This document shows, one piece after another, positions 12,898 to 59,780 of a DNA stretch of 64,000 bases; position 1 is the stretch's first letter, and each line of letters opens with the position of its first letter. The translations under genes and the position numbers were made by a program. The notes beneath the pieces are model-generated. The model was not told the DNA's origin and searched no databases. It worked only from the letters and a program-made list of their open reading frames with translations. Origin of the DNA: Cyanidioschyzon merolae (lineage: Eukaryota); the NCBI GenBank assembly GCA_000091205.1, contig AP006502.2, one strand, 5' to 3'.

Positions 12898-15600
12898 TCA
12901 CGACGTCGACCGCCGCATGGCACCCAGCTTGACTGCTCGCCGTCGCCGTGCGTCCGCGCTGTTCAACACCAGCGCCCAGTCGTTCGCGTCCGGTACCGAC
13001 GCCAGCGGCTCCGTTGCAGGTCCCTGCGGCTGCTGCACTGCTGCGCCTCCAGCAGCAGCAGCAGCAGCAGGCGCGCCCGCATTCGAGCGCGTACGCATCG
13101 CCGCTGGCGCATCGCGGCAACGTGCCGCTTCCGCAGTGCGCATGCATTCCTCCGCCAGCGCCGCCTCCCAGAGCGATGCCGAAGGCGCACGTGTGGATCT
13201 GGACAAACTGGACATCGATGCGTGCACCGCTGTACTGGACAGCGCCGCAGGTCGATGCGTGTCCGCACTGGGCGATGCGATCGGTGCGGCAAACTGCTCC
13301 GCTGAGAGGCGCGCTGCATTTGGAGGCGCCTCGGGCCGCGTCCCTCGATCGCGTGCGCTCATCGGTGTCGCGGAGCTGGCTTGCGTCTCACGCGTGATCG
13401 ACAGTAGCGCGTTGTCTTCGGCATTGAGCGCGCTGGGTTTCAAAGCAGCACCTGCAACAGCGGAGCGTCTGTCCGCTTCGGCGTGATTCGCTTGGCTCGC
13501 CCGGTTCAGCGATGTGCCCGCAGCGTGTTCTTGCTTCGTAGCATCGAATACGTCGACCAGCGAGGCTGCGAGCGATGCGAAATGCCACGATCCTGCGCGG
13601 TCGCTTTTCGATGCGGCGGCTCTGGCCCCGAGCGCGCTCGCCGTGCTCGTGCCAGGCTGAATCTCGGCGACGCGCTCGCGATCCTCTCGTTCTTTCTCCT
13701 GCTCATGCATGGTGCGTAAACGCCGCAGGTAGGCGTCTGTGACGCGAAACGCCTGTTCGCGCACATCAGCGACTTTATCGCCGAGTCCTTGACAGAGCGC
13801 CGGCAGAATTCGACTCACCATATCATCCCGAGCGTAGAGGTCAGCGGTCGCCTCTAGGGCTGCGATGCCCGCAGCGCGCGCGGGCGGGAATGAGTCGCGC
13901 ATCGCTCGCGTGAACGCCGCAACAAGCACCTTCTTCTGCGTCGTCGCACTCAAAAGGGTCGCGATCTTGCCCAAACAAATCGTAGTATTCGTTCGTATTG
14001 CCGGTTCCGGATCCAGCTGTAACTTGGCGAAATGGTTCATCAGGACGTGATTGCGATTCCGTTCGCTCAAACGCGGAGCTATCCGGGCGATCGTCTTGAG
14101 TACCATGTCCCGCAAAGCCAGCGGTACGACCTGCTCCATCGCGCTGGGTGACCCCGCTCTTGGATCCGACGTGCTCTGCGATGTTGTCGACGCTGTCCCT
14201 GTTTGGATCGTGATTTGGCGCGGCAAGTTGGCCACCATCGCCGGAAACAAAATCTCATTCAACTGACTCGTATCTGCACGCTCGACCAGCCAGTCCAGTG
14301 CCTGGGCAACTTCATTCCGGACGTCGATCGGACTGGCGCGTAGCCAGCGTGCAACCGCTTCCATGAATGCACGTGTTTCCGGTCCTTGTCGGTTCTCGAA
14401 ACGACGATGAATGCGTAACACCACGCGTATGGCAGCTGGATCCGCAACGCCCAAGTCAATGGCCTGCTGCAGCAGTGGTGCTGCCTTGTAGACACAAAAC
14501 GATGGCGGCAGTTTGTCTAGTGACTCTAGTAAAGACTCCATGGTGCTGCGTTTTTCCCAGTGCTCGCTCAGCTGCAGACGGTCGAGCGCTAGATTGAGAC
14601 GCACGAACGGCATCTGCAAAATGTGCTCTTGTGTGAGAAACGACTGGAGCGCTGCGCGTTTCGCGCTATCAGCCGCTAAAAATAGCGAATAAACGGAACG
14701 CAGCTTCTCTGGAATGACCTGGATACGACGCAAATCGTCTACTGTTTGGTATTGGCCGCCCGAGAAAAGCTCATACATGAGACATCCAAAAGCCCATGCG
14801 TCCAACGCGTGCGTCGGTATCGCGGTAGCAGGCGGGACGGGCGTATGAAGTTCTGGAGGCCAGTAGTTGGCGAACTGAAAGTGCCGCGCCTCGCTCAGGC
14901 GTTGCCACTGCGCCGACTCGGTGAGAACTTCCAGGCCGCCGAGTTTCCAGTCGCCTCCCGCTGTCACGAAAACCGTAGCCGGCGATAGCCGACCGTGAAC
15001 GGACTTCATTTCTGTATGAATGAAGTGCAGAGCTCTCGCTATACAAAATAAACCCCATACAATCGTCTCCGCGGTCAGCGAAATTGGATCAGAACGCAAC
15101 ACAAACTGCAACGGAACAACTGCTTCTGTCACCAGTTGCAGAGACTCGCTCTGAGCTGCGCCAGCTGATAGTTCCGACGAGTCAACAAACCGCAAAATAT
15201 CCGGATGTCTCACTGTTCGAAGCCGCTGTACGCCTGCCCTCGCGAGATGCTCGCAGACGTCCGCCCGGCTTCCGTGGTGTCGTCGCCGCTCGAAACGAAA
15301 CAGCGTTACCGGGGGAGCGTTCTCGTCGCGAGTCGAAACAGCATCGTGAACAGTCCAGACTTGCGCCGGATCATCAAGAGGAATGGTGCGTGTCACGCGA
15401 TAGGGCAAGTCTCGGGACTCCTTTCCGATAAGCTTGAGCAGCGTCTGCATAGACGCAGCGCCAGGCGTTGCAGTAGTAACGGTATCGGTGAAGCGGGCGA
15501 TCGACACGTTCCAGGGCGCTGCGGGGGCGACTGCCGCGTGGCGCGCGCCCTGCCCGCATCGTACTTCCGCCTCCAGTGTTTTCTTCTTCATGGACAACAC
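12898..15600 (-). CDS. SCY1-like (SCYL1/NTKL-type) pseudokinase with HEAT repeats and a low-complexity Ala/Ser-rich C-terminus. Both start and stop are uncertain because the 3' end lies in a GC-rich region that is open in several frames.
   Basis: N-terminal kinase-like domain (VTEAVVPLQ, WGLFCIARALHFIH, DWKLGGLEV), HEAT region and the RTNTTICLGKIA motif match SCYL1. Confidence 0.7.
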   Translation of the reverse strand: MLSMKKKTLEAEVRCGQGARHAAVAPAAPWNVSIARFTDTVTTATPGAASMQTLLKLIGKESRDLPYRVTRTIPLDDPAQVWTVHDAVSTRDENAPPVTLFRFERRRHHGSRADVCEHLARAGVQRLRTVRHPDILRFVDSSELSAGAAQSESLQLVTEAVVPLQFVLRSDPISLTAETIVWGLFCIARALHFIHTEMKSVHGRLSPATVFVTAGGDWKLGGLEVLTESAQWQRLSEARHFQFANYWPPELHTPVPPATAIPTHALDAWAFGCLMYELFSGGQYQTVDDLRRIQVIPEKLRSVYSLFLAADSAKRAALQSFLTQEHILQMPFVRLNLALDRLQLSEHWEKRSTMESLLESLDKLPPSFCVYKAAPLLQQAIDLGVADPAAIRVVLRIHRRFENRQGPETRAFMEAVARWLRASPIDVRNEVAQALDWLVERADTSQLNEILFPAMVANLPRQITIQTGTASTTSQSTSDPRAGSPSAMEQVVPLALRDMVLKTIARIAPRLSERNRNHVLMNHFAKLQLDPEPAIRTNTTICLGKIATLLSATTQKKVLVAAFTRAMRDSFPPARAAGIAALEATADLYARDDMVSRILPALCQGLGDKVADVREQAFRVTDAYLRRLRTMHEQEKEREDRERVAEIQPGTSTASALGARAAASKSDRAGSWHFASLAASLVDVFDATKQEHAAGTSLNRASQANHAEADRRSAVAGAALKPSALNAEDNALLSITRETQASSATPMSARDRGTRPEAPPNAARLSAEQFAAPIASPSADTHRPAALSSTAVHASMSSLSRSTRAPSASLWEAALAEECMRTAEAARCRDAPAAMRTRSNAGAPAAAAAAGGAAVQQPQGPATEPLASVPDANDWALVLNSADARRRRAVKLGAMRRSTS

Positions 15601-21877: not shown

Positions 21878-22885
21878 CTAGTCTGCCGCGTCCGCAATAC
21901 CACCGGCATTTATTTCGAAAGTAGCCTCGCCTTCGGGTAGGCAAGGACTATCCACCAGCTTTGCGATGCGCTGCTCGCCGCGTCCTTTCCGGAGTGCCAG
22001 TCTCGTGGTCGATGCATGTGCCATGATGTGACCGCCGATCGGCTTCAATGGATTTGAGGAGAACATAGCCGCCGCGCCATCCGGGCACGCCTGTACCTGA
22101 TTCGTAACCAGGGCACAGACGTTGAACTCCTCGGCGAGCTTGCCAAGCGTACTCATAAACTGATTTAAATGTTGCTGGCGTGCACTGAGTTCCCCACGTC
22201 CGCTATAGTCCACGCGATAGAGCGCCGTCGCCGAGTCTACAATCACCAAGGCGAAGCGCGACTCGCACATGAGAGCCGCTGCCTCGCGCAGCAGCTCCAG
22301 CTGCTGATCAGTGGTGTAGGCGCGCGCGTGCGCAATATTCTCGAGCACGTCATCGGCATCGATGCTGAAGCGCGTTGCGATCGCGCGGATGCGCTCCGGG
22401 CGGAAATTGCCCTCGGTATCGATGTAGACGACTCTGCCGGCATGCGACTCGTCCGCTGCTTGAGCGGTCACAGCCAGCGTGTGGCAAAGCTGGGTCTTAC
22501 CACAGCGATATTCTCCATAGACTTCGGTAATCGAAGCAGACTCGAGTCCACCTCCGAGTAGCGTATCGAGTGCATCGCTGCCCGTTCGGAGATGAAAAAC
22601 ACGCTGACGCACCGCCAGACACTCTGTACCGCTGCGGTAGCTGACGTCACCGGCGGCTGTCCTGGCCGCCGCCATGATCTTGTCCACCTTGGCCTCTGAG
22701 AGGCCCTTGATGTCAAGGAGCAAGCGCCGCGGACGCTGCAAAACGCCCAGACAGGTCACAATGCCAGCTTCGCGCAGTTTTTTCACATCTGTCGCGAGCA
22801 CACCTTGCTGTTCAAGTTCCTCGATCGGGTGAAATACCTCGGTCGTTTTCGAGCGGGCCCGCTCTACGACACTAGAGCGACTCAT
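21878..22885 (-). CDS. RAD51/DMC1-family RecA-like recombinase. The ORF extends to 23101 into a repeat region, but the conserved start is MSRSSVVERARSK at 22885.
   Basis: GEYRCGKTQLCHTLAVTAQ (Walker A), LVIVDSATALYRVDYSGRGELSARQQHL, IGGHIMAHASTTRLALRKGRGEQRIAKLVDSP, and N-terminal HhH region KGLSEAKVDKI. Motifs are a mixture of RAD51-like and DMC1-like. Confidence 0.9.
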   Translation of the reverse strand: MSRSSVVERARSKTTEVFHPIEELEQQGVLATDVKKLREAGIVTCLGVLQRPRRLLLDIKGLSEAKVDKIMAAARTAAGDVSYRSGTECLAVRQRVFHLRTGSDALDTLLGGGLESASITEVYGEYRCGKTQLCHTLAVTAQAADESHAGRVVYIDTEGNFRPERIRAIATRFSIDADDVLENIAHARAYTTDQQLELLREAAALMCESRFALVIVDSATALYRVDYSGRGELSARQQHLNQFMSTLGKLAEEFNVCALVTNQVQACPDGAAAMFSSNPLKPIGGHIMAHASTTRLALRKGRGEQRIAKLVDSPCLPEGEATFEINAGGIADAAD

Positions 22886-23039
22886 CCCACGATGCTGGTG
22901 TTGTCCTCGAACTGTCGCTAGACAACGCCAACAAGTTCGCCTTACGATGAATATCGCGATGCAGCGTGTCATCAAAATGATCGGATGCTCCTCCATGATG
23001 CATGTCGGGGCATGCGTGCATGATGATCGCTCAGTTGAC

Positions 23040-23185
23040 GAACACGCATGTATGTGTAGACACGTATATACATATGCACACATATATACACATGCACGCA
23101 TCTATACATATGCACGCATCTATGCAGACACGTATACATGCACGCATCTATACATATGCACGCATCTACGAAGACACGTACGTAG
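23040..23185. repeat. Imperfect tandem repeats (cgcatctatacatatgca-type units, TACA/TGCA-rich) upstream of the recombinase gene.
   Basis: Repeated cgcatctatacatatgcacgcatcta units visible directly. Spurious overlapping ORFs on both strands read HMYRCVHVYI-like peptides. Confidence 0.7.
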
Positions 23186-23437
23186 GTCGATGGTGCCGAA
23201 CCTATGCCTGAAGGCCGTTCGTTCGACAGCTCTGCACCTGTTGACGTGAACATGGTACCGTAACCATGCAGTCAGAATTCGTCGCACCAGGGGTTCCTGG
23301 AATACTCCATTGTAACCGTAGACGCTCAGCATGCTGCAGCGGGACGCTGATCTGCTAGTGTTGCAGGCACCTCTTGCCCCGGGATGAACAGCTGGATTCC
23401 GTGAACGCCCCGGCATGCGAACGTGTACGTAAGCACA

Positions 23438-23453
23438 CACACACACACACACT
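23438..23453. repeat. (AC)8 dinucleotide microsatellite.
   Basis: acacacacacacacac seen directly. Confidence 0.8.
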
Positions 23454-23974: not shown

Positions 23975-26900
23975 CTATGTCTCCTGATCGTTGGTCGAAG
24001 ACTCCTCACCGAACAGCTTCGTTCGCGCATAATTCAAGTACACTTGGTCCTCGAAATCGCAGTTTGGCAAGACGCTCGACGCTCCCGAGGTCTCCATCGG
24101 AGGCAGCCGCACAACGACCACGGGCTCGGGTGCGCCGCTGCCCGCCGGCACCGATCCGGCATCTGCGGTTACCGCTGAGCCATGGTATCTTTGCCCAGCC
24201 CGGTCCGAGTTTGCTGGCGCTTCGTCAGTAGCTTCCCTGGAAGTTACAGCCGGGACCCGAATAATCAACGGTGCTTCGAAACGCTCTGGGGGCATCAGAC
24301 TAGCACGCGACCCCGCCACTGCATCATGCGCGTGCATACCCAGGGAGCGCATCTTCAAGCGACGTCCGTACTCGTCACGAGTTAACAGCGGCGCCGGTTC
24401 CCCAAAGCCCCACATGGTTCGGAAGAATTCCACAGCAGCCTGCCTCGCAACCGGGTGACGATACCTCGCAAAGAGGCGCAGAACTTGACGAACCGCCACC
24501 GCAGCCATTTCGTGCTCGCTGCGAAGCAAAATCGCCAGCTTTGTCGTTCGAGAAGCGAACTTGCACATGGCTCGCAAAACCAACACCGGATAGAGCGGCT
24601 CCGGTGCCACCGCAGCAATAACCAGCAGCGATCGAACCACTTCGGGACGATCACCGGCCGTTCGCACGAGACCCTCGACTGCCGCTCGAAACGGACGATG
24701 GAGCCACCAGACGCGGGCCAGGTACTGCTCGAATCGAGATCGAGTGGGCGCCTCATCGAACCGATCGAGCTCGACTCTAACTGGACCAAGCAATGTACTC
24801 CAAACGAGACGCTCGAAATCGTTCTGAATACGAACTGCCTCGGATGACGAGCGGTCGGACGTTACACATTGCCGCTGGATGGAGACCAGCTCGGCTGCGG
24901 CCTCGATACAACCGGCAGTGAGCGCTCGCTGATGACTCGGGAACAGTCGATCACGGTTCAGAAAGCGTTCGATGCAGCGTGCCACCTCCATGGTGCGCAA
25001 GCCTTCATTGGTACTGGACGCAGAGGCAAAAGCCAGCAAAGCATCCCGTAGAAAATACGCATCGTCAAACATATTCGCTTCGTTGTTATGAAAACGCAGC
25101 ACGTGATCTAGCAACGCAAATAGATCGGTAGGCGTGCGCTGAGCGCCTTCACCAGTTTGCGCGACCCGAATGCCCCCGAGGGCTCGCAACATAGCTCTTT
25201 GCAAAAAATATTCCGCCAGATTTCGACTGAAATCCAGCGGTCGTGGAAGTCGTTGCAGCCACTCGCGCCCGAGCCTTGCTCGCTTCTCCTGCAACCGCCC
25301 TGGAGCAGTTGCCGCTGTCGTCGCTGCGTCTGCCTGACTACCTACCAGTGCATCCGAGGCGTCGACGTTCGCCAAATGGTTATCCTCCTTGGCATCCGAA
25401 CGAGGAAGCACTTGGTCCTCACCAACAAGGTACCGATTCGCGTAAAAGTCTACAAGTATTTCAAGGCCGAGAAAGCGGGTTTCGCTACCACCCCAGCGGG
25501 CAATACTTGCCGCTGCAGCGCTGCGCACACGATAGTGAACCTGTTCATTCAGGAGGCCGTGCTCTGCGAGACCGCGCACACCTATTGCGGTTGCATGCAG
25601 ATAAAGAGCATCACAGCAGTCCATCTGACTTGATACGTCGCGTTCTCCGGCAAGCTGACGAACCCAGGCTCGCTCATTCTGGCGCCAGAATACCCCCCTG
25701 ACCCACTCCATGTCAGGGTCGACGCGGATCCACATAATCGGATCATGGGTCAGCGGGAGTCGCTCTCCAGCGGGTGTCGTTGTTGTCGTTGTTGCGTCAG
25801 CGCTGCTGGTACCGCCAATATCCGGGTGATCGACGCTGGTTGCTGCTGCTGCCGCTGCTGCCGCCGCTGCAGCTGCTCGCCCACGTACACCGAGACCTAC
25901 CTTGCGGGTACGGCAGTAGACGTCAAAAACGTGAACGCTTTCTTGAATCTCTAAATCAATGGTGTAGTGCTCTTCGGGTTCACGTATGCTCAAGCGCAGA
26001 GTACCGCGAAATACCAGCGGTTCCGTAACAACACCGCTCTGTCGACGATGATTGGTTTGTCTCACAGCGACCTCGATCTTGTGCTCTTTGGGATCGTATC
26101 GATAGCCGCAATGAAAAAGCGGCATACTATTGCTTACAACGTACTGGCGAACAAATGCGAGCAACTCCACGCCAGTCCGTCGCTCAAGGAGCTTCAGGAA
26201 AGGTTTCAAACCGACGGCATGATGGCGAGGAGGCATCACCAGCAAGCTGTGCAGCGTGGAGCGGATACCTTCACCGACATCGACCCGAGCTGCGTGATGT
26301 TTGCGCCCTGTCGATGCTCCGCTTGTCGACTGGACTTGGATGAGTTTGCGCTCCGCTCGGCGATCGATGGCCGCAATCAGCAGCATACTAAAGCGTCGAG
26401 AAGGCTCGTGCGACTCGGCCGCTGGCTGCTCGGCGGGCGACCAACGCAGCGAGCCTGGAGATTCCACGAGCGACTTCATCGCGTCCCGTAAATACAGACG
26501 GAACCAGGTGTTCCCGAAGAGCTTGCGGAGACAGAGCGCACCGACGTATTCCTCGATACCCACAAACAACCAGAGGTCAGCAGTATGCAGTGGTCGCAGC
26601 AAGCGACGCATCCAGAAGGATGCCAGCGCAGTCACCATGCGCCGGTGCGAGTCAAACACGTCATCCACGACTCGATCCGAGAACAGTAAAATCGAGGAAA
26701 GCACGACGAGACCTCCACCGGGATACACACTCGGCAGATGCATGCCGAATCCATCCACAAAGACAAACTTGAGCGAAGCGCAGGGACAGGGCACACCAAA
26801 ATAGTTCTCGAGGAATTCCATTGCCGCGGGCAAAAAGTCTACCGTGTTCACTAACTGGCGAACAAAGCCAGGTAAACAAAAATAGGTGACGCTCTGAGGT

Positions 26901-28399
26901 CGTATTCGATCGGGAAGCACCCGAAACAAGCCGGCAGAAAACGCGATATCGCTCGCAAGTACTGGCTCCGGAACCTGGAAAACAAAACGTGTGCGAGATG
27001 CTCGACCCGCCTCAGTGCTCTCTTCTAGGCTGCTGCCTTTGAGTTCCCCGGAGGCAACCGCAATCATCCCAGTTGGCACGGTTATCTCCAGGTCATAGGC
27101 GCAGCGCACTCCACTGTTGGCGAGCACTGCGTTCGGCGGGTTCAGACACGGCATCCACGTTGACGCCAAACCGCTGTGCGACTCCACGTACATGTGTTCC
27201 ACGAGAATCGGTAGAGGCTGTTGCTGCAGCAGCAGCAGCTGCTGCTGCTCCGGCAGGCGTTGGTCGAAGAGCAGCGCATCTTCAGCGGCTCCGCTGCCAT
27301 CGAAAACGTCAAGGGGCTCTCCGTTAGCATGTCCGCAAAAATGCACCGCTGGTGACTCTGGAAGCGTCGTATACTCTACCTGCAGACGGAGACCTATGCT
27401 TACAGTCGGTTTGGTCCAAGTCGCGTCGATTTTCGTCCCCAGTGGTGCCGTTGTCGAGCGCGGCTCCGTCTCTGAGCGAGGTATGCGGTCCACCAGCGCG
27501 TCCGCTTCCGCCACTGAAACTGGCTCCGCTTGTGGATCTTTGCATGCGCTTCGTGCTTCGGACGACGACTTTGAAAGATCATTCGGAGATGTTCCAGTAA
27601 CGTCCACGGGGTTCGTGGCAGCAGTGGGATCCCCTGGTGGTGGCAGCGGCTCTGCGGTTCGGCTGGCTCCCAATATCGACCATGGAACGAAAACCAGAAG
27701 CTCACCATGGGCGGCGTGACGAGCCTGTCGTGAGAGCATCATTTCCAGCTCCTCCATTGTTGGCGGAGGGTAGATTCTATCAGCAATAGCCTGCATAACC
27801 TCGGTACCGTCGAGCGGACTCTGCAAGCGATACTCCACAGCGCGGTCGTTCACGGTTACCGCCTGAATCGCACAACACCGGAGGTTTATGCGCAGTTCTA
27901 GGGTATCGGATGCGTCTCCCTTATATTTTGTCGTCCCTGGCTGACGCAGTGCATTCGGTACCTGGAAATAGAGCAGTGCTCGGCCGCGTAGTTTGCGCTC
28001 GGCAAAGTCGACGTCCACTCGCAGTTGCACGCGATCAAGGCGAGGTCCGAGACCACCGCCCTGACTAGCGTCACCGCGGGTATGCTCCGCGCGGGCTTGG
28101 GCCTTCCGATCAGTCCCTGGGTTGTTTGCGTGCGTAGGCTGCAACACACCGGCGCCATGACTCGTTGGCAAGCGCAAAAGCGTTGGCGCTGCAGCTGATG
28201 ACGCTTTGGAGCGGTGCTTGCGCGCTCGTAGCTCCTCAGCTCCTCTTTCCTGCGGCGTACGGCTCCCTGTCGTTTTTCTCAGTGTAGGACTGGAACGGTT
28301 ACCGTCCATTGCCGCTGTAGCGGCACGTCCAGTGGAACTTTGCGAGGCAACCGGGAGGTATCTGGCTTGAGCTCGAAGCGCTCGCTGAACGCGCTGCAA
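23975..28399 (-). CDS. TAF2: TFIID subunit TAF2 (M1-aminopeptidase-like fold) with internal poly-Ala and poly-Thr tracts. The N-terminal roughly 30-130 aa may be ORF extension.
   Basis: 1474 aa. DPIMWIRVDPDMEWVRGVFWRQ aligns with human TAF2 PLLWIRIDPDMSVL..QADFMWQYQ. The aminopeptidase-N-like N-terminal region and length are consistent. The (GCN)n runs encode AAAAAAAAAAAA. Confidence 0.75.
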   Translation of the reverse strand: MQRVQRALRAQARYLPVASQSSTGRAATAAMDGNRSSPTLRKTTGSRTPQERGAEELRARKHRSKASSAAAPTLLRLPTSHGAGVLQPTHANNPGTDRKAQARAEHTRGDASQGGGLGPRLDRVQLRVDVDFAERKLRGRALLYFQVPNALRQPGTTKYKGDASDTLELRINLRCCAIQAVTVNDRAVEYRLQSPLDGTEVMQAIADRIYPPPTMEELEMMLSRQARHAAHGELLVFVPWSILGASRTAEPLPPPGDPTAATNPVDVTGTSPNDLSKSSSEARSACKDPQAEPVSVAEADALVDRIPRSETEPRSTTAPLGTKIDATWTKPTVSIGLRLQVEYTTLPESPAVHFCGHANGEPLDVFDGSGAAEDALLFDQRLPEQQQLLLLQQQPLPILVEHMYVESHSGLASTWMPCLNPPNAVLANSGVRCAYDLEITVPTGMIAVASGELKGSSLEESTEAGRASRTRFVFQVPEPVLASDIAFSAGLFRVLPDRIRPQSVTYFCLPGFVRQLVNTVDFLPAAMEFLENYFGVPCPCASLKFVFVDGFGMHLPSVYPGGGLVVLSSILLFSDRVVDDVFDSHRRMVTALASFWMRRLLRPLHTADLWLFVGIEEYVGALCLRKLFGNTWFRLYLRDAMKSLVESPGSLRWSPAEQPAAESHEPSRRFSMLLIAAIDRRAERKLIQVQSTSGASTGRKHHAARVDVGEGIRSTLHSLLVMPPRHHAVGLKPFLKLLERRTGVELLAFVRQYVVSNSMPLFHCGYRYDPKEHKIEVAVRQTNHRRQSGVVTEPLVFRGTLRLSIREPEEHYTIDLEIQESVHVFDVYCRTRKVGLGVRGRAAAAAAAAAAAATSVDHPDIGGTSSADATTTTTTPAGERLPLTHDPIMWIRVDPDMEWVRGVFWRQNERAWVRQLAGERDVSSQMDCCDALYLHATAIGVRGLAEHGLLNEQVHYRVRSAAAASIARWGGSETRFLGLEILVDFYANRYLVGEDQVLPRSDAKEDNHLANVDASDALVGSQADAATTAATAPGRLQEKRARLGREWLQRLPRPLDFSRNLAEYFLQRAMLRALGGIRVAQTGEGAQRTPTDLFALLDHVLRFHNNEANMFDDAYFLRDALLAFASASSTNEGLRTMEVARCIERFLNRDRLFPSHQRALTAGCIEAAAELVSIQRQCVTSDRSSSEAVRIQNDFERLVWSTLLGPVRVELDRFDEAPTRSRFEQYLARVWWLHRPFRAAVEGLVRTAGDRPEVVRSLLVIAAVAPEPLYPVLVLRAMCKFASRTTKLAILLRSEHEMAAVAVRQVLRLFARYRHPVARQAAVEFFRTMWGFGEPAPLLTRDEYGRRLKMRSLGMHAHDAVAGSRASLMPPERFEAPLIIRVPAVTSREATDEAPANSDRAGQRYHGSAVTADAGSVPAGSGAPEPVVVVRLPPMETSGASSVLPNCDFEDQVYLNYARTKLFGEESSTNDQET

Positions 28400-28590: not shown

Positions 28591-28633
<43 letters not shown>
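28591..28633. repeat. (CAG)14 trinucleotide microsatellite, about 190 bp upstream of the TAF2 ORF.
   Basis: Uninterrupted cagcag... run seen directly. Confidence 0.9.
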
Positions 28634-38625: not shown

Positions 38626-40232
38626 GGACGTTCTCGGATGCCGAACGCTCCGAAGCCGGCCGCCGCCGTGCAGCTGTAGTTGCTGAACCTCACGGATACC
38701 GAGCGGTTACGCTGCACCGCCTTTTTTGACGCGTTCTGAAACCCTCTTTCGCTTTACAAACCGCTGAATTATCGCCAACCCACTTTATGGCACTTGTCAA
38801 TGCCGCAACTAAAGCCGCTCGGCACGAAGATCCGACTCCCTATCCCTACACAGTACGTATCAAGGGGTGCAGGGAATACCAGCGGATCGAAATTGTCGCT
38901 CAGCGGCTGGCGATGCATTGCTGCAGCGGCGCGAGCGCCCAGCTTCGTACGGGCGCGCTCATGTGATTCTCCCGAGTGCGCCTTCATTGAGGCCGGTGCA
39001 CGACGAGCAGTCCCTGCAACGAATGCGACGAGCATTTTCCAGTATCAGCAACGACTATGATACCAGGAGTACGTGTTCGACTCCCGATCAAGGTCTGACA
39101 CGGTGAAGCGACACCGACGCTGCGCGCTTTACAAACTACACTAGTGTTTATTCAGCTAGTCCACATTTGTACAAGATTCAAGCAATTTGTTGCGGAAGAA
39201 AGATTTTTGTGTGTGCCTCAAAAAAGATTGCACCTCATATCAATGAGACAAATGCTAAGGTATCACCCGGGAGCTGGGATAGTCGTTGAACCACTGCAAT
39301 CAGTGTCTGGTTTCATGACGTGTTCACCTGAAGCGGCGATCAGCGTTCGTTTCGCATGCGGTCTCGGATACCTGCACCAAGGCAATCGTGGCAAGCATTT
39401 GTTTATTCTGTTTTATAGCTGGGAAGGAGAGATTTGGGAACGATTTTCCCACAACGAGCAGCATCGCATGGGTTGCATCAGTGTGCTCCAAATGAACCAG
39501 AGGCTATGAGAATGCTTTGTTTCCGAGTGGATAGAGTCAACGGCGACCTTGTATGCTGCTGCTTACCTGTACCCCAAAGTAGCCGAATGCCAGCGCAAAA
39601 GCCTGCTGGACTGTCTGCGTGCGATGTTTCACATGCATGTAAGCGTATCCATAGAACCTGGCACACATACGCCTTGTGGAGGTACCCGCAAGGGCCCCGC
39701 CACACTGTCCTGTTACCATTCGGCGACCGCGAAGGCAGCGCACCCAGGATCGAAGCAAGCGCCTAGGGCAGGCTCAGGGCTCGCCAATAGGTCGTTGAAG
39801 CTTTGATGACTCTGTCGAAGAGGGAAAATCTGGAACGAGCTTACAGAAGGTGTTAGCCTCTGCGCACGAACGGATATCTCTTGCTCGCATATCAGCAGCA
39901 GCACCAGCAGCAGCACTTGAACATACTGTAGCGTCTGTTCGAATCATCGAAACGTGTCCGGGATGCAGGATCCCATCAACGATCCTGGATATCCCCGACT
40001 GCGCAATGGGCATCGGTATCTGGGAAATCATCTATCCTTCCCCAAAGTACCTTTAAGAGATCCTCCACTCCATCACCAACGCTACCTCATCGTGCTACCT
40101 TGCTTGCTTTTCGCATCAACGATGCAGCGCGCTGGGCACCGACACGCCGGCCGCCGGCGTTCAATAGAGCTCCCCTAGGCTCGATATACGACCGCGTTGT
40201 GTTACGATTATTTTTTGCGTAGGTGAGTTTCC

Positions 40233-55827: not shown

Positions 55828-55860
55828 GGGGCAGGGGCAGGGGCAGGGGCAGGGGCGTCT
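55828..55860. repeat. (GGGGCA)5-6 hexanucleotide repeat with a canonical G-quadruplex-forming motif on the + strand.
   Basis: ggggcaggggcaggggcaggggcaggggc seen directly, about 140 bp downstream of the Vps18-like stop. Confidence 0.85.
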
Positions 55861-57096
55861 GTGCTCGATGAAAACGGAAAGCGCGCGTGCTGCTGCGTGC
55901 TGTGCCATGCGTGCGTCGTTGCCCGGCTGAAAGTGCACGCATTTTAGAAACAGAACAAATTTGAACATGGTGAATGTGCACGCGCACGGATCAGGTGCCA
56001 GCGCTATCGCTCATTGATTCGTCGCTGTGTCATGCCGTGTCACGTCGAGGCACTGACAGCACCGCTGGGATGTGTCCACGTTGCAGGATCCGTCTATTTC
56101 TGGTGTACGATCGATGCGTAAAACGAGAATCCAGGGGTATGGAAACGCTGCTGGTAAACAGGACAAGGACCATCGCATCCCCGTAGACGTCTCCGTGTAC
56201 GATGGATCTTCGACTATTCCCTCGGTCGAGATGGCAACTACATGCCTCCAGCGACTTTGAGCGTGGCGCGTCTATCCCAAACGCTTGCTTGGACGCCCGA
56301 TGCGCCGCTGCTGCTGTCGCCTGAGGGATACAGGACGGCCCCGCGGCTCGTTTAGGGACATCGGCTCGCGATTCGGAGTAGTCGGTGCGGAGCAAGCGGC
56401 CTCTCGAGGAAGGATGTCTGCGAGCGCTTCGACGCGAGCGCGCGCTGCCTAGACGAATGCTCCTTTGACGCAGTATATGCACGGGCACCGATTATTACCG
56501 TTGTGGTGCGCAGCGGACAACGAGTGTGGCGAAAATGGCCAGTTTCTGTTTCCGCCCGAGAGCGGCATCCGTGATGTTCGTCTACGCTCGAGCCGGTGCA
56601 TGCCTGGGTCCGCAGCCAGCGACACAGCGCATCGTGCACATATTCAAACCACGAGCGCCGACGAGACCGAGTCTGGTGGAAACCAGCCAGGCGCCACCGA
56701 TGAAGTGGCACCGCGCCTAGTATCGCCGCAAGCGCTGGTCGCATGCGATACACTACTGGCGACGGGTGCCGGTGTGCGTATTCACAACTCGTTCGTGTAA
56801 GCGAAGCTTCCGCCGAATAGCAGAGAATCTGGCGAGGGTTTGTCGAGCAAGCTACTAGATTATCGATCGTGACTGCCCGCAGAAACTTCTGATTCGCCAC
56901 ATGTACGTACGTGGACGTGAGGCACCAGTCATCCACCCGCGAGTCTTGATGATCTGCGTTGAGACGCATATCATGAGACGCTTTTTTCGTGCTTGCGGTG
57001 CGACGTCGGGAAGCCTCGATAGATGCATGCGTTGCGGCAGCAGGGCTCGCCATCACCAGCCCTAGCGCCAGTGACACTTGAAAAACACTCTTCACT

Positions 57097-58053
57097 CTAC
57101 ACTTGTCTACTGCAAACGTTCTGTACCGACGGGTCCAACTTGTCCGCATCCACTTCCTCATCGCATGTTGTCGAGCCGGGCGCCGGTGCTGTCTCCACCA
57201 AATCACTTGTCTTGTGCAGCCTCGCGTTTGCGCTCGAAAACCATTCTCGCGGTCGCATTGATGCCGGCAAGTGCACCAGATCCTGCGCTGTGTCCACGTC
57301 GTTGAGCGTTACCGGTAAACATATCGTCCTGACGCCATCATTGCGCAGAGCTTCGACGGTGCGCGCGCATACATCATTCTGACTGAATACGAGGTGTGGG
57401 CCGAACGCAGCGTAGATGACTCTCGCCCAACGGGTTCGTTCTGCTGCCGCAAATGCTAAACCGAGCAAATAATAACCGCCGTCCTGCGCTGGTCCAATCA
57501 CCGCTCCATGACCGGCATGGAGCGCAGCGAATGCCTGCTGTAGCACCGCGGTATCAAGCGCCGGGCAGTCGCTTCCGATGACCACAACGTGCGCATCCCT
57601 CGATTCGTCTACCAGGCTTGTCACCTCCGTAAACGCTTGGATGAGTCGAGAGCCTAGCGGATCCTGCTTTTGATCACCAGTGCTCTGCACTTTAGAGGCT
57701 TTCTGTGGTGCGATCCGAAACGCCGGGTAACGATGACGAACCGAGTCGTCGAGCCAGCGTTCTACGCACTCCGCCTTCGCCTGCTCGCTCTCCACTGGGG
57801 TATAGTATAGGTGGACGGCGCCTGTTCCTCCAGCTTGCAGATCAAGGCCCTGCAACCAGTCATACGCCGTCGCAAGGGTGTTTTCTACCAGAGCGGCACT
57901 GATGCGCGTCGCAAGTGTCGAACCTATCTCCCGACTCAAACGCTGTTTCGTCAGGCCCGCTATCGGAGGCTTGGTGAAAACGACCAGGTGCAGCTCTTGT
58001 TCCGCACTCCACGTGGAGATTGGCTGCGCATGGTCAACATTTTCCCCTTGCAT
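57097..58053 (-). CDS. DUF2064-family protein (GT-A-like nucleotidyltransferase fold, TIGR04282-type). This is a bacterial/cyanobacterial-type gene.
   Basis: LHLVVFTKPPIAGLTKQRLSREIG...AALVENTL (the N-terminal KxP.xG..KTRL motif) and VVIGSDCPALDTAVLQQAFAAL...AVIGPAQDGGYYLLGL (the DUF2064 hallmark). Confidence 0.7.
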   Translation of the reverse strand: MQGENVDHAQPISTWSAEQELHLVVFTKPPIAGLTKQRLSREIGSTLATRISAALVENTLATAYDWLQGLDLQAGGTGAVHLYYTPVESEQAKAECVERWLDDSVRHRYPAFRIAPQKASKVQSTGDQKQDPLGSRLIQAFTEVTSLVDESRDAHVVVIGSDCPALDTAVLQQAFAALHAGHGAVIGPAQDGGYYLLGLAFAAAERTRWARVIYAAFGPHLVFSQNDVCARTVEALRNDGVRTICLPVTLNDVDTAQDLVHLPASMRPREWFSSANARLHKTSDLVETAPAPGSTTCDEEVDADKLDPSVQNVCSRQV

Positions 58054-58254
58054 ATCGTCATCGACAGCATCAACTCACTCGCTCAGTGCGTCATCCCTAT
58101 AAGCAAACAAGAGCAGCAACAGCAGCAGCAGCAGCACGGCAAGTGCGCCCTCGTTAGCAAGCGACCGGGTACGCAGGCGGCATCGATGGCACCGTGCACC
58201 GGCGTCCGGCAGAGCGCAAGTGCGCGCTGGCCCCGCGCCGCTGCTAGTCGCCTG

Positions 58255-58812
58255 AACATGAACGCGTGTGTGCTCACCAGCGGCAATGCTTTCTCTCCAG
58301 GTGCACGATCGATGAATGGACGCAGATTCCTCGATCATGAACGCGTGTGTGCTCACCAGCGGCAATGCTTTCTCTCCAGGTGCACGATCGATGAATGGAC
58401 GCAGATTCCTCGATCATGAACGCGTGTATGCTCACCAGCGGCAATGCTTTCTCTCCAGGTGCATGAACAATGAATGGACGCAGATTCCTCGATCATGAAC
58501 GCGTGTGTGCTCACCAGCGGCAATGCTTTCTCTCCAGGTGCATGAACAATGAATGGACGCAGATTCCTCGATCATGAACGCGTGTGTGCTCACCAGCGGC
58601 AATGCTTTCTCTCCAGGTGCACGATCGATGAATGGACGCAGATTCCTCGATCATGAACGCGTGTGTGCTCACCAGCGGCAATGCTTTCTCTCCAGGTGCA
58701 CGATCGATGAATGGACGCAGATTCCTCGATCATGAACGCGTGTGTGCTCACCAGCGGCAATGATTTCTCTCCAGGTGCATGAACAATGAATGGACGCAGA
58801 TTCCTCGATAAT
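58255..58812. repeat. 79-bp minisatellite of about 7 tandem copies with two variant units, lying in the divergent intergenic region between the DUF2064 and MGMT genes.
   Basis: Unit acgcgtgtgtgctcaccagcggcaatgctttctctccaggtgcacgatcgatgaatggacgcagattcctcgatcatga recurs at 58262, 58341, 58420, 58499, 58578, 58657 and 58736. The ORF track shows identical 60-aa artefact ORFs repeating. Confidence 0.95.
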
Positions 58813-58991
58813 ATGTGCATGGATAGAGCGTGGGAAGAGACTCCAGCTCATTTATCGGTGCTTGAAGCTTGTCATCGCTGCTCGGCTCCGTAGTCGCCCG
58901 TGTAAGAAAAGCGTGATCGATCTGGGAGCATCTTCGGTGCTGGATGCGTTCCCGCCACCTTTCCCGTACGCAGACAAGAGAGCAACACTGT

Positions 58992-59034
58992 GTCTCTGTT
59001 TCTGTCTCTGTCTCTCTCTGTGTGTGTATGTGTG
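58992..59034. repeat. (CT)n/(GT)n compound dinucleotide microsatellite.
   Basis: ctctgtttctgtctctgtctctctctgtgtgtgtatgtgtgtg seen directly. Confidence 0.8.
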
Positions 59035-59141
59035 TGAACGCTGACTCGAGGACGTTGGCTCCGGAGAGCTGTGTGCTCACTCGGCGCGTCGTCCTGCAAA
59101 ATAAGGGCAGGCGCCAGCACCCGCATGCCGCCTTTGCCCAG

Positions 59142-59780
59142 ATGAACACCGTTGGCGGCTCGAGATATCGGGGCGAGCGTCTTGTTCCTCAGTGCCAACG
59201 CATGGCGAGGTCTACTGGGACCTCTTTTAAGGAGAAACGTAGGCGTTTGGCCTCGGGAAGCGTTCTGTTTTCCAAGTGCTTACGCAAGTCATGTTGCGTT
59301 TGCCTGGACGCGACGCTGTCTGACTTTGAGAAAGCGGTTTATCACGTGGCCGCGAGTATCGAGCCGGGACGTGTCGCGACATACGGCACCATAGCGCAGG
59401 TGATTAAGCCAACGGAAGGCGCGCGAGCTGCTCGAGCCGTTGGCACTGCGTTGCGGAAGAATCCTTACTGGAAAGAGGGCTGCGTTCCTAAAGTTCCTTG
59501 CCACCGTGTCGTAGCGGCAGATCGGACGCTCGGTGGTTACATGGGCGTTAAAGACCCCAAAAGCACGCAGCTGGAGCGGAAACGCTGCATCATGCTTGAA
59601 GAGGGCGTGCCGCTGACGCGAAACAAGCGTGGTCAATGGGTCGTTGTGGAAAACGTCGCTGGAGGCGGCGGCACGAGCGCTGGGCAGCCGCTTCTGAGCC
59701 CCGCAGAGCTGCGCGCAATAGCTGCTACCTTCGCCAGCGCTTCTAGTCTTTCACCTGAAGGGTGTTCGACCCCCAGATGA
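59142..59780 (+). CDS. MGMT: O6-methylguanine-DNA methyltransferase (MGMT/Ogt), short form. Only the C-terminal DNA-binding/active-site domain is recognisable. The start is either ATG 59142 or ATG 59202.
   Basis: DFEKAVYHVAASIEPGRVATYGTIA...AVGTALRKNP...VPCHRVVAADRTLGGY contains the HTH, the Asn hinge and the PCHRV active-site cysteine motif. Confidence 0.75.
   Translation: MNTVGGSRYRGERLVPQCQRMARSTGTSFKEKRRRLASGSVLFSKCLRKSCCVCLDATLSDFEKAVYHVAASIEPGRVATYGTIAQVIKPTEGARAARAVGTALRKNPYWKEGCVPKVPCHRVVAADRTLGGYMGVKDPKSTQLERKRCIMLEEGVPLTRNKRGQWVVVENVAGGGGTSAGQPLLSPAELRAIAATFASASSLSPEGCSTPR

What the first reader, a model, noticed from the sequence alone, without database searches (positions are those of the whole stretch)
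58255..58812. 79-bp, roughly 7-copy minisatellite inside the DUF2064/MGMT divergent promoter
Seven head-to-tail copies of a 79-bp unit occupy most of the space between the divergently transcribed DUF2064 gene (start 58053, minus) and MGMT gene (start about 59142, plus). The period is exactly 79 bp and is not a multiple of 3. Two units carry a variant core, gtgcatgaacaatgaatgg instead of gtgcacgatcgatgaatgg. Each unit contains ATGAACGCG and TGAATGGACGCAGATTCCTCGATCATGA motifs, so it creates reiterated potential factor-binding sites. (CT)n/(GT)n tracts follow at 58992-59034. Copy number is likely variable and could tune expression of a DNA-repair gene.
Basis: seen in the sequence. Interest (0 to 1): 0.6.

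Follow-up and report, generated by a model that had tools for sequence, protein, structure and literature searches.

The report
Red-alga intergenic 79-bp minisatellite

Summary
The repeat is real. TRF finds 58257-58809, period 79, 7.0 copies, 97% matches. The window is not bacterial. [quoted passage not shown] The array fills about half of the 1.1-kb spacer between the divergent DUF2064 and MGMT-like genes. Three units (3, 4 and 7), not two, carry the variant core. The unit occurs only at this locus in a metagenome-wide scan. It is absent, as is any tandem repeat, from the syntenic spacer of two sister species. It has stop codons in all six frames and no RNA-family, tRNA or folding signal. In environmental strains with flanks about 99% identical, the array sits at the same place but has different variant maps. 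One independent 114.6-kb contig also has exactly seven units. Thirteen contigs show one or two units, which are the sizes that short-read assembly collapse would produce, so copy-number variation is unproven. Best reading: a young, species-specific minisatellite that turns over by slippage, unequal exchange and gene conversion in the upstream DNA the two genes share. A regulatory role is untested and has no support from conservation. This is a new member of a known kind, of low interest.

The parts
58257..58809 (.). Minisatellite: 7.00 head-to-tail copies of a 79-bp unit (consensus CATGAACGCGTGTGTGCTCACCAGCGGCAATGCTTTCTCTCCAGGTGCACGATCGATGAATGGACGCAGATTCCTCGAT), 53% G+C
   Evidence: TRF score 1029. 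Spacing is exactly 79. Unit-by-unit comparison. Stop codons in all six frames, longest open stretch 72 codons.
58415..58572 (.). Units 3 and 4 with the variant core (C50T, T53A, G55A). Unit 3 also has G14A.
   Evidence: The same three-substitution core occurs at other array positions in environmental strains (L002, L017, L023, L035, L036, L045).
58731..58809 (.). Unit 7, with the variant core plus C33A. In most environmental strains the last unit has the consensus core.
57097..58053 (-). DUF2064 / GT-A-type glycosyltransferase-like gene (318 aa), identical to C. merolae 10D BAM83487.1
   Evidence: Pfam PF09837 E=2e-22. TIGR04282 scores 117.5 bits, below the 134-bit cutoff. Identity to P0146. 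The start codon aligns with the Cyanidiococcus orthologue.
59202..59780 (+). MGMT-like gene (methylated-DNA-protein-cysteine methyltransferase C-terminal domain, with the PCHRV motif). The likely true start is 59202 (192 aa) or 59142 (212 aa). GenBank BAM83488.1 starts at 58944 (278 aa).
   Evidence: Pfam PF01035 E=1e-20. TIGR00589 scores 58.5 bits, above the 46.4-bit cutoff. Orthologues are 182-186 aa and align from about residue 87. A 2-bp indel among strains inside the annotated N-terminal extension would shift the frame.
58054..59201 (.). Spacer shared by the two divergent genes (1148 bp), of which the array is 48%
58108..58136 (.). (AGC)n microsatellite 55-83 nt upstream of the DUF2064 ATG. 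It is one triplet shorter in the two environmental contigs aligned (L001, L002).
   Evidence: TRF. Alignment columns 387-389.
58991..59037 (.). (TGTCTC)n / (GT)n tract between the array and the MGMT-like gene. A 2-bp length polymorphism exists among strains.
   Evidence: TRF 58991-59023. Sequence. Alignment columns 229-230.

Best explanation
This is a young, species-specific minisatellite in the non-transcribed spacer between two head-to-head nuclear genes of Cyanidioschyzon merolae.

A 79-bp stretch of spacer DNA was duplicated and then amplified to seven copies by replication slippage or unequal sister-chromatid exchange. Some of these steps moved several units at once. The 10D allele reads C C V' V C C V'', which looks like a three-unit block used twice. 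The L022 allele reads C c C c C t C, which looks like a two-unit block used twice.

The array is kept homogeneous, and its variant units are moved around, by the same recombination and gene-conversion processes. C. merolae has very active homologous recombination. The array encodes no protein and no recognisable RNA.

Any effect on the DUF2064 and MGMT-like genes would be indirect. It could act by changing the distance or chromatin between the two core promoters, rather than by supplying selected binding sites.

Shown: the array's existence, single-locus distribution, absence from sister species, non-coding nature, and faster structural divergence than the flanks. Inferred: the mutational mechanism and the lack of a selected function.
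For: - Array anatomy.
- Organism and genes: searches show identity to C. merolae 10D proteins BAM83482.1, BAM83487.1 and BAM83488.1.
- Single locus: an exact 31-mer scan of 241 million metagenome records returned 4 contigs, all at this locus. Nothing else in the window matches. Viral contigs gave 0 hits.
- Lineage-specific: the gene order Hsp70 - MGMT - DUF2064 - Vps18 - RNase T is conserved in Cyanidiococcus yangmingshanensis (L003) and another species (L004-L007). Their spacers of 760 and 1147 bp hold no tandem repeat and no match to the unit. Shared 8- to 10-mers are at or near the level of shuffled controls.
- Non-coding: stop codons in all six frames. No Rfam hit at E<=10 inside the array and no tRNA. 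Unit folding is no better than shuffles, z = +0.2 to +2.1.
- Rapid turnover: 10D versus L022 differ at 14 of 553 positions (2.5%) in the array, against about 0.5% in 8.4 kb of flanks.
- Shuffled variants: several different first-unit and last-unit types occur in strains whose flanks are 98.9-99.5% identical, and the linked three-substitution core turns up at different positions.
- Recombination background: efficient homologous recombination, and loss of DNA between direct repeats, are documented for C. merolae 10D (PMC13353863).
- Local instability: two microsatellites in the same spacer are also length-polymorphic, so the spacer tolerates length change.
Against: - Both fully resolved alleles have exactly seven units despite different internal variants. 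This could mean copy number is constrained, which a neutral minisatellite would not predict. With only two alleles it may be coincidence.
- C. merolae has one of the most repeat-poor and compact eukaryotic genomes (PMC1955436), so a 553-bp repeat that persists in a spacer is somewhat unexpected.
- Position 200-750 bp upstream of one gene and 330-950 bp upstream of the other is where regulatory elements would sit.
- No expression, chromatin or transcription-start data were available, so function is not excluded.
Confidence: 0.7

Rival explanations
1. The array is a reiterated cis-regulatory module. Each 79-bp unit carries one or more transcription-factor sites, for example the ACGCGT, CGATCG or GTGCAC palindromes or the invariant ATGAATGGACGCAGATTCCTCGA segment. 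The array would then act as a copy-number-dependent upstream enhancer or silencer for the MGMT-like gene, the DUF2064 gene, or both.
For: - The array lies upstream of both ATGs in the shared spacer.
- Units are kept 95-100% identical.
- Two diverged alleles both have seven units.
- Positions 56-78 are invariant in all complete units seen in any strain. The only exception is the degenerate second unit at the unexplained end of contig L002.
- Promoter tandem repeats are known to modify expression in yeast (own knowledge: Vinces et al. 2009, Science) and in humans (PMC4857002).
Against: - There is no trace of the unit or its sub-motifs in the syntenic spacer of two sister species.
- The palindromes are common hexamers found 17-37 times elsewhere in the window, mostly inside genes.
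- The variant core destroys CGATCG and the unit's 12-bp inverted repeat in 3 of 7 units.
- Homogeneity is explained by concerted evolution alone.
- No binding or expression data exist. No paper on regulation of this MGMT-like gene in C. merolae was found.
Confidence: 0.17
2. The array is an array of small non-coding RNA genes, or the source of a repeat-derived transcript (snoRNA-like or siRNA precursor).
For: Tandem clusters of about 80-nt units are a common layout for snoRNA genes in plants and protists (own knowledge). The unit contains a modest hairpin across the junction.
Against: - Rfam gives no match in the array at E<=10.
- ARAGORN finds nothing.
- Minimum free energy is no better than dinucleotide shuffles in any phase or on either strand, z = +0.18 to +2.14.
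- There are no C/D-box (RUGAUGA ... CUGA) or H/ACA motifs in the sequence, by direct reading.
- The hairpin arm is broken in the variant units.
- The unit is not conserved in sister species.
Confidence: 0.03
3. The array is an assembly artefact: the repeat was expanded or collapsed in the reference.
For: Short-read assemblies handle this locus badly. Many contigs break at it, and others show 1-2 units.
Against: - The 10D reference was finished from BAC and Sanger data to '100% complete' (PMC1955436).
- An independent 114.6-kb environmental contig has the same 553-bp length with different internal variants (L022).
- Variant units break the array into unique stretches, which makes seven units resolvable.
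Confidence: 0.03
4. The array is a member of a dispersed satellite or transposon-derived repeat family.
For: None beyond the general fact that minisatellites can derive from mobile elements.
Against: - The 31-mer scan of metagenomes that hold deep Cyanidioschyzon coverage found only this locus.
- There are no other copies in the window and none in viral contigs.
- There are no terminal inverted repeats or target-site duplication at the array borders.
Confidence: 0.02

Closest known systems
Classical eukaryotic minisatellites with interspersed variant repeats (as analysed by minisatellite variant repeat mapping; Jeffreys et al. 1991, own knowledge)
   Same: The unit is 10-100 bp and arranged head to tail. 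The array is about 0.5 kb. Two or more unit types are interspersed, and their order differs between individuals and strains. The array diverges faster than its flanks. It is non-coding and occurs at a single locus.
   Different: The array is at the short end of the size range. The unit is not G-rich or strand-asymmetric (53% G+C). The organism is a haploid-phase unicellular red alga with almost no repetitive DNA. Length polymorphism is not yet demonstrated.
Promoter-associated tandem repeats that modulate expression (yeast: Vinces et al. 2009, own knowledge; human: Quilez et al. 2016, PMC4857002; INS VNTR and MAOA-uVNTR, own knowledge)
   Same: It is a tandem repeat in the upstream region of genes, here shared by a divergent pair. 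It is polymorphic among natural isolates.
   Different: In those cases copy number was shown to vary and to correlate with expression or nucleosome occupancy. Here neither is shown. The unit (79 bp) is much longer than most yeast promoter repeats.
Tandemly repeated viral and rDNA enhancers (SV40 72-bp repeats, MoMLV 75-bp repeats, Xenopus rDNA spacer 60/81-bp repeats; own knowledge)
   Same: Unit length is similar (about 70-80 bp), with head-to-tail reiteration upstream of promoters.
   Different: Those units contain mapped factor-binding sites and have proven enhancer activity. No binding sites or activity are known here, and the unit is not conserved beyond the species.

Membership tests
Minisatellite | Head-to-tail tandem array with a unit of roughly 10-100 bp | tested here: met
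   Period 79, 7.0 copies, 0% indels.
Minisatellite | Non-coding and not a structured-RNA gene array | tested here: met
   Stop codons in all six frames. No Rfam or tRNA hit. Folding is no better than shuffles.
Minisatellite | Interspersed variant units whose order differs between individuals | tested here: met
   10D reads C C V' V C C V''. L022 reads C c C c C t C. Other strains show different first and last units.
VNTR (variable-number tandem repeat) | Copy number differs between individuals or strains | tested here: inconclusive
   Two resolved alleles both have 7 units. Thirteen contigs have 1 or 2 units, but those are the lengths expected from de Bruijn collapse of identical 79-bp units (own reasoning), so they are not evidence of variation. 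Long reads or PCR are needed.
Expression-modulating promoter tandem repeat | Located in the upstream regulatory region of a gene | tested here: met
   The array is 203 bp upstream of the DUF2064 ATG and 332-392 bp upstream of the MGMT-like ATG. Transcription start sites are not known.
Expression-modulating promoter tandem repeat | Repeat length correlates with, or causally changes, transcript level or chromatin state | not testable with these tools
   No RNA-seq, ChIP or reporter data were accessible.
Reiterated enhancer / binding-site cluster | Unit contains sites conserved in orthologous regulatory regions or matching a known factor | tested here: not met
   There is no match to the unit in the syntenic spacers of L003 and L004. 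k-mer sharing is at or near the shuffle level. The hexamer palindromes are common throughout the window.
Dispersed satellite / transposon-derived repeat | Copies at multiple genomic loci | tested here: not met
   All 4 metagenome contigs found by the 31-mer scan are at this locus. There are no further copies in the window.
snoRNA / small-RNA gene cluster | Conserved boxes or structure, or a match to an RNA family | tested here: not met
   No C/D or H/ACA boxes in the unit (direct reading).

The most novel reading that the evidence does not exclude
The array is a selected architectural element of a bidirectional promoter in one of the most repeat-poor eukaryotic genomes. Copy number would be held at seven (553 bp, about 3.5 x 158 bp, so two units roughly equal one short nucleosome repeat) in diverged strains, while the unit sequence is free to shuffle. 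On this reading the array sets nucleosome phasing or insulation between the MGMT-like DNA-repair gene and the arsenosugar-type DUF2064 glycosyltransferase gene, and rare length changes would shift their expression.
Probability: 0.08. Interest if true: 0.45.

Novelty: new member of a known kind. Interest (0 to 1): 0.2.

Why it matters
C. merolae is a genetically tractable model alga with a finished, extremely repeat-poor genome, so a clean single-locus minisatellite has two practical uses.

- It offers a ready marker for typing strains and tracking natural Cyanidioschyzon populations, because variant maps differ between hot-spring samples whose flanks are 99% identical.
- It offers a convenient test bed for the general question of whether promoter tandem repeats tune expression. 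Copy number can be edited precisely at the native locus by homologous recombination.

The analysis also corrects a gene model. BAM83488.1 appears over-extended at its 5' end. Beyond these points the finding adds no new principle.

Tried and rejected
- Bacterial reading of the window. Rejected: the window holds Vps18, Hsp70 and an adenylate kinase identical to C. merolae 10D proteins. The sigma-70 promoter scan was therefore not used.
- Coding repeat. Rejected: the period is not a multiple of 3 and all six frames contain stops.
- RNA gene array. Rfam at E<=10, ARAGORN, and folding of four phase/strand combinations of the unit all came back negative.
- Progenitor or conserved copy of the unit in sister species. 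blastn-short with word size 7, TRF and k-mer sharing were run. Only three 9-mers matched in L004. They are in the wrong orientation for homology and more than 100 nt apart, so they were judged chance.
- Copy-number variation from metagenome contigs. 1- and 2-unit arrays were found but rejected as evidence. A de Bruijn assembler collapses identical 79-bp units to exactly 79 bp (k up to about 80) or 158 bp (k about 81-159).
- Dispersed family. The metagenome 31-mer scan, a viral-contig scan and a window search found only this locus.
- Literature. Searches for C. merolae tandem repeats or minisatellites, promoter and transcription-start data, and MGMT found nothing about this array.
- Heat-shock-element, E2F and CCAAT-like readings of the unit. 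Inspected by eye; none fits the consensus spacing.
- Exact-sequence look-up of the window's own DUF2064 protein returned nothing, although the identical protein is in the collection as P0146. Treated as a limit of the index.

Full report
**1. The observation**

Tandem Repeats Finder reports one array at 58257-58809. It has period 79, 7.0 copies, 97% matches, no indels and score 1029. An independent repeat finder gives start-to-start spacings of exactly 79, with homology spanning 58254-58812.

Cutting the array into units shows the following:
- Units 1, 2, 5 and 6 are identical to the consensus.
- Units 3, 4 and 7 share three linked substitutions (C50T, T53A, G55A). These turn GTGCACGATCGATG into GTGCATGAACAATG.
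- Unit 3 adds G14A and unit 7 adds C33A.

So three units are variant, not two. The CT/GT tracts at 58991-59037 are present. No other repeat in the window has a period above 46.

**2. Where the window comes from**

The window is eukaryotic. It encodes Vps18-like, Hsp70 and RNase T-type proteins on mixed strands, at roughly one gene per 3.5 kb and about 56% G+C.

- The 753-aa adenylate kinase ORF is identical to C. merolae 10D BAM83482.1, on a 1,621,617-bp record.
- The DUF2064 ORF is identical to BAM83487.1.
- The 278-aa MGMT ORF is identical to BAM83488.1.

[quoted passage not shown] Its genome is known to be finished and very poor in repeats (PMC1955436).

**3. The setting**

DUF2064 (57097-58053, minus strand) and the MGMT-like gene (plus strand, ending at 59780) are head to head.

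The orthologous MGMT-like proteins of Cyanidiococcus yangmingshanensis and a second relative are 182 and 186 aa. They align from about residue 87 of the annotated 278-aa model. Several environmental strains carry a 2-bp deletion in the GT run inside the annotated N-terminal extension, which would shift the frame if that stretch were coding. The real start is therefore 59202, or possibly 59142, and the CT/GT tract is non-coding.

The spacer is then 1088-1148 bp, and the array occupies 48-51% of it. The array begins 203 bp from the DUF2064 ATG and ends 332-392 bp from the MGMT ATG. It carries 32 ATGs in the MGMT sense and 10 in the DUF2064 sense. This argues that it lies upstream of both transcription start sites. 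That last step is inference.

**4. What the array is not**

- It is not coding. All six frames contain stops, and the longest open stretch is 72 codons.
- It is not a recognisable RNA. Rfam gives no match inside it even at E<=10. ARAGORN finds no tRNA in the window. The unit folds no better than dinucleotide shuffles on either strand and in two phases (z from +0.18 to +2.14).
- Its only sizeable inverted repeat is not under constraint. That repeat (GATCGATGAAT ... ATTCCTCGATC) is broken by the variant core in three of the seven units.
- It is not a dispersed family. An exact 31-mer scan of the metagenome collection returned four contigs, all at this locus. The window holds no other copy. Viral contigs hold none.

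**5. Comparison with relatives**

The gene order Hsp70 - MGMT - DUF2064 - Vps18 - RNase T is conserved in Cyanidiococcus (L003) and in another species (L004-L007). Their spacers of 760 and 1147 bp contain no tandem repeat and no blastn-short match to the unit.

Shared 8- to 10-mers are at or near shuffle expectation. The three shared 9-mers in L004 are in the wrong orientation for homology and are widely spaced. The array is therefore specific to the C. merolae lineage. No sub-motif has a phylogenetic footprint.

**6. Variation within the species**

Environmental contigs 98.9-99.5% identical to the window carry the array at the same place.

One 114.6-kb contig (L022, Ga0078972_1000982) spans it completely. 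It has exactly 7.00 units but a different variant map: C c C c C t C, where c is T79C and t is C50T. The 10D map is C C V' V C C V''. In register, the two alleles differ at 14 of 553 positions (2.5%). The surrounding 8.4 kb differs by about 0.5%.

Anchored contig ends show other arrangements:
- The first unit is consensus, or V (L002, L023, L036, L045), or G11C (L035).
- The last unit is consensus in most samples, V in L017, and V plus C33A only in 10D.

The linked three-substitution core thus sits at different array positions in different strains. This is the signature of unequal exchange and gene conversion. The two- and three-unit higher-order patterns suggest multi-unit duplication steps (inference).

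At least 20 contigs from independent samples start or end inside the array. This is the usual behaviour of short-read assemblers at a true tandem repeat.

**7. Copy number**

Thirteen contigs bridge the spacer with one unit (L024, L028-L032, L052) or two units (L025-L027, L034, L035, L044).

These cannot be taken as short alleles. For a run of identical 79-bp units, the shortest path through a de Bruijn graph that creates no k-mer joining both flanks is one unit for k up to about 80, and two units for k of about 81-159. Those are exactly the two sizes seen. This is my own reasoning, not a computed result.

The only two alleles resolved through variant units both have seven units. Whether the locus is a true VNTR is therefore open.

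**8. Most likely nature and mechanism**

The evidence fits a young minisatellite created and reshuffled by slippage, unequal sister-chromatid exchange and gene conversion. The spacer it sits in also holds two length-polymorphic microsatellites:
- (AGC)n at 58108-58136, which differs by one triplet.
- The GT run, which differs by 2 bp.

C. merolae 10D has highly efficient homologous recombination and readily loses DNA between direct repeats (PMC13353863). That supplies the machinery.

I put about 0.7 on this reading, with no selected function. I put about 0.17 on a real copy-number-dependent regulatory role. The position upstream of both genes, and the shared count of seven units, keep that second possibility alive. 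Small probabilities go to an RNA array, an assembly artefact or a dispersed family.

**9. Comparison with what is known**

The array meets the structural definition of a minisatellite with interspersed variant repeats. It resembles promoter-associated tandem repeats that modify expression in yeast (Vinces et al. 2009, own knowledge) and humans (PMC4857002). However, the defining functional features, length variation and correlation with expression, are untested here.

Its unit length recalls the tandem 72-81-bp viral and rDNA enhancers (own knowledge). Nothing beyond length supports that analogy.

Literature searches found no description of this array or of minisatellites in C. merolae.

**10. 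Verdict**

This is a new member of a known kind, of low general interest. It has some practical value as a strain marker and as an editable test case in a model alga.

Noticed in passing
window 58944-59201: The GenBank model of the MGMT-like gene (BAM83488.1, 278 aa) starts at 58944 and reads through the CT/GT microsatellite. Orthologues are 182-186 aa. Several strains carry a 2-bp indel in this stretch, so the model is probably over-extended by 66-86 codons. The real start is likely 59142 or 59202.
   Followed up: yes
window 58108-58136: An (AGC)8 microsatellite lies 55-83 nt upstream of the DUF2064 ATG and is one triplet shorter in the two environmental contigs aligned (L001, L002). Together with the GT-run indel, this 1.1-kb spacer holds three tandem repeats that vary among strains: two in length and the 79-bp array in its unit order.
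   Followed up: partly
window 57097-58053 (-): The DUF2064 protein scores 117.5 bits against TIGR04282, 'arsenosugar biosynthesis glycosyltransferase', below the 134-bit cutoff. In the listed top 120 hits, the relatives named outside Cyanidiophyceae are bacterial, at 50% identity or less over partial alignments. This suggests a bacterial-origin gene, of interest given arsenic-rich hot-spring habitats.
   Followed up: partly
L002 1-37: One environmental contig ends, after two variant units, in 37 nt (TACTTGAGCTGAGTACATAAGTGTGGTCTTCCTAAGT) that match nothing in the window or in any fetched locus. It is either an assembly chimera or a structurally different allele.
   Followed up: partly
window 23060-23180: A second, smaller tandem repeat (18-bp and 46-bp periods, ACATATGCACGCATC-type, about 2-6 copies) overlaps the 5' end of the minus-strand ORF 21878-23101 and extends into the gap before the ORF at 23975-28399. 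A (CA)9.5 run lies at 23434-23452.
   Followed up: no
window 28591-28633, 13050-13070, 39893-39915: There are perfect or near-perfect CAG/CTG trinucleotide runs, up to (CAG)14. The runs at 28591-28633 and 13050-13070 lie inside long ORFs and presumably encode homopolymeric amino-acid tracts. The run at 39893-39915 lies in no listed ORF of 150 aa or more.
   Followed up: no
window 55828-55856: A perfect (GGGGCA)4.8 hexamer repeat overlaps the 3' end region of the Vps18-like ORF. It is G-rich like the C. merolae telomere unit AATGGGGGG but is not the same sequence.
   Followed up: no
window 56352-57206 (-) and equivalents in L001, L022 and others: Prokaryote-style gene callers on the metagenome contigs call a 258-265-aa ORF overlapping the 3' end of DUF2064. 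It has no Pfam hit and an arginine- and serine-rich, low-complexity translation, so it is probably spurious.
   Followed up: no
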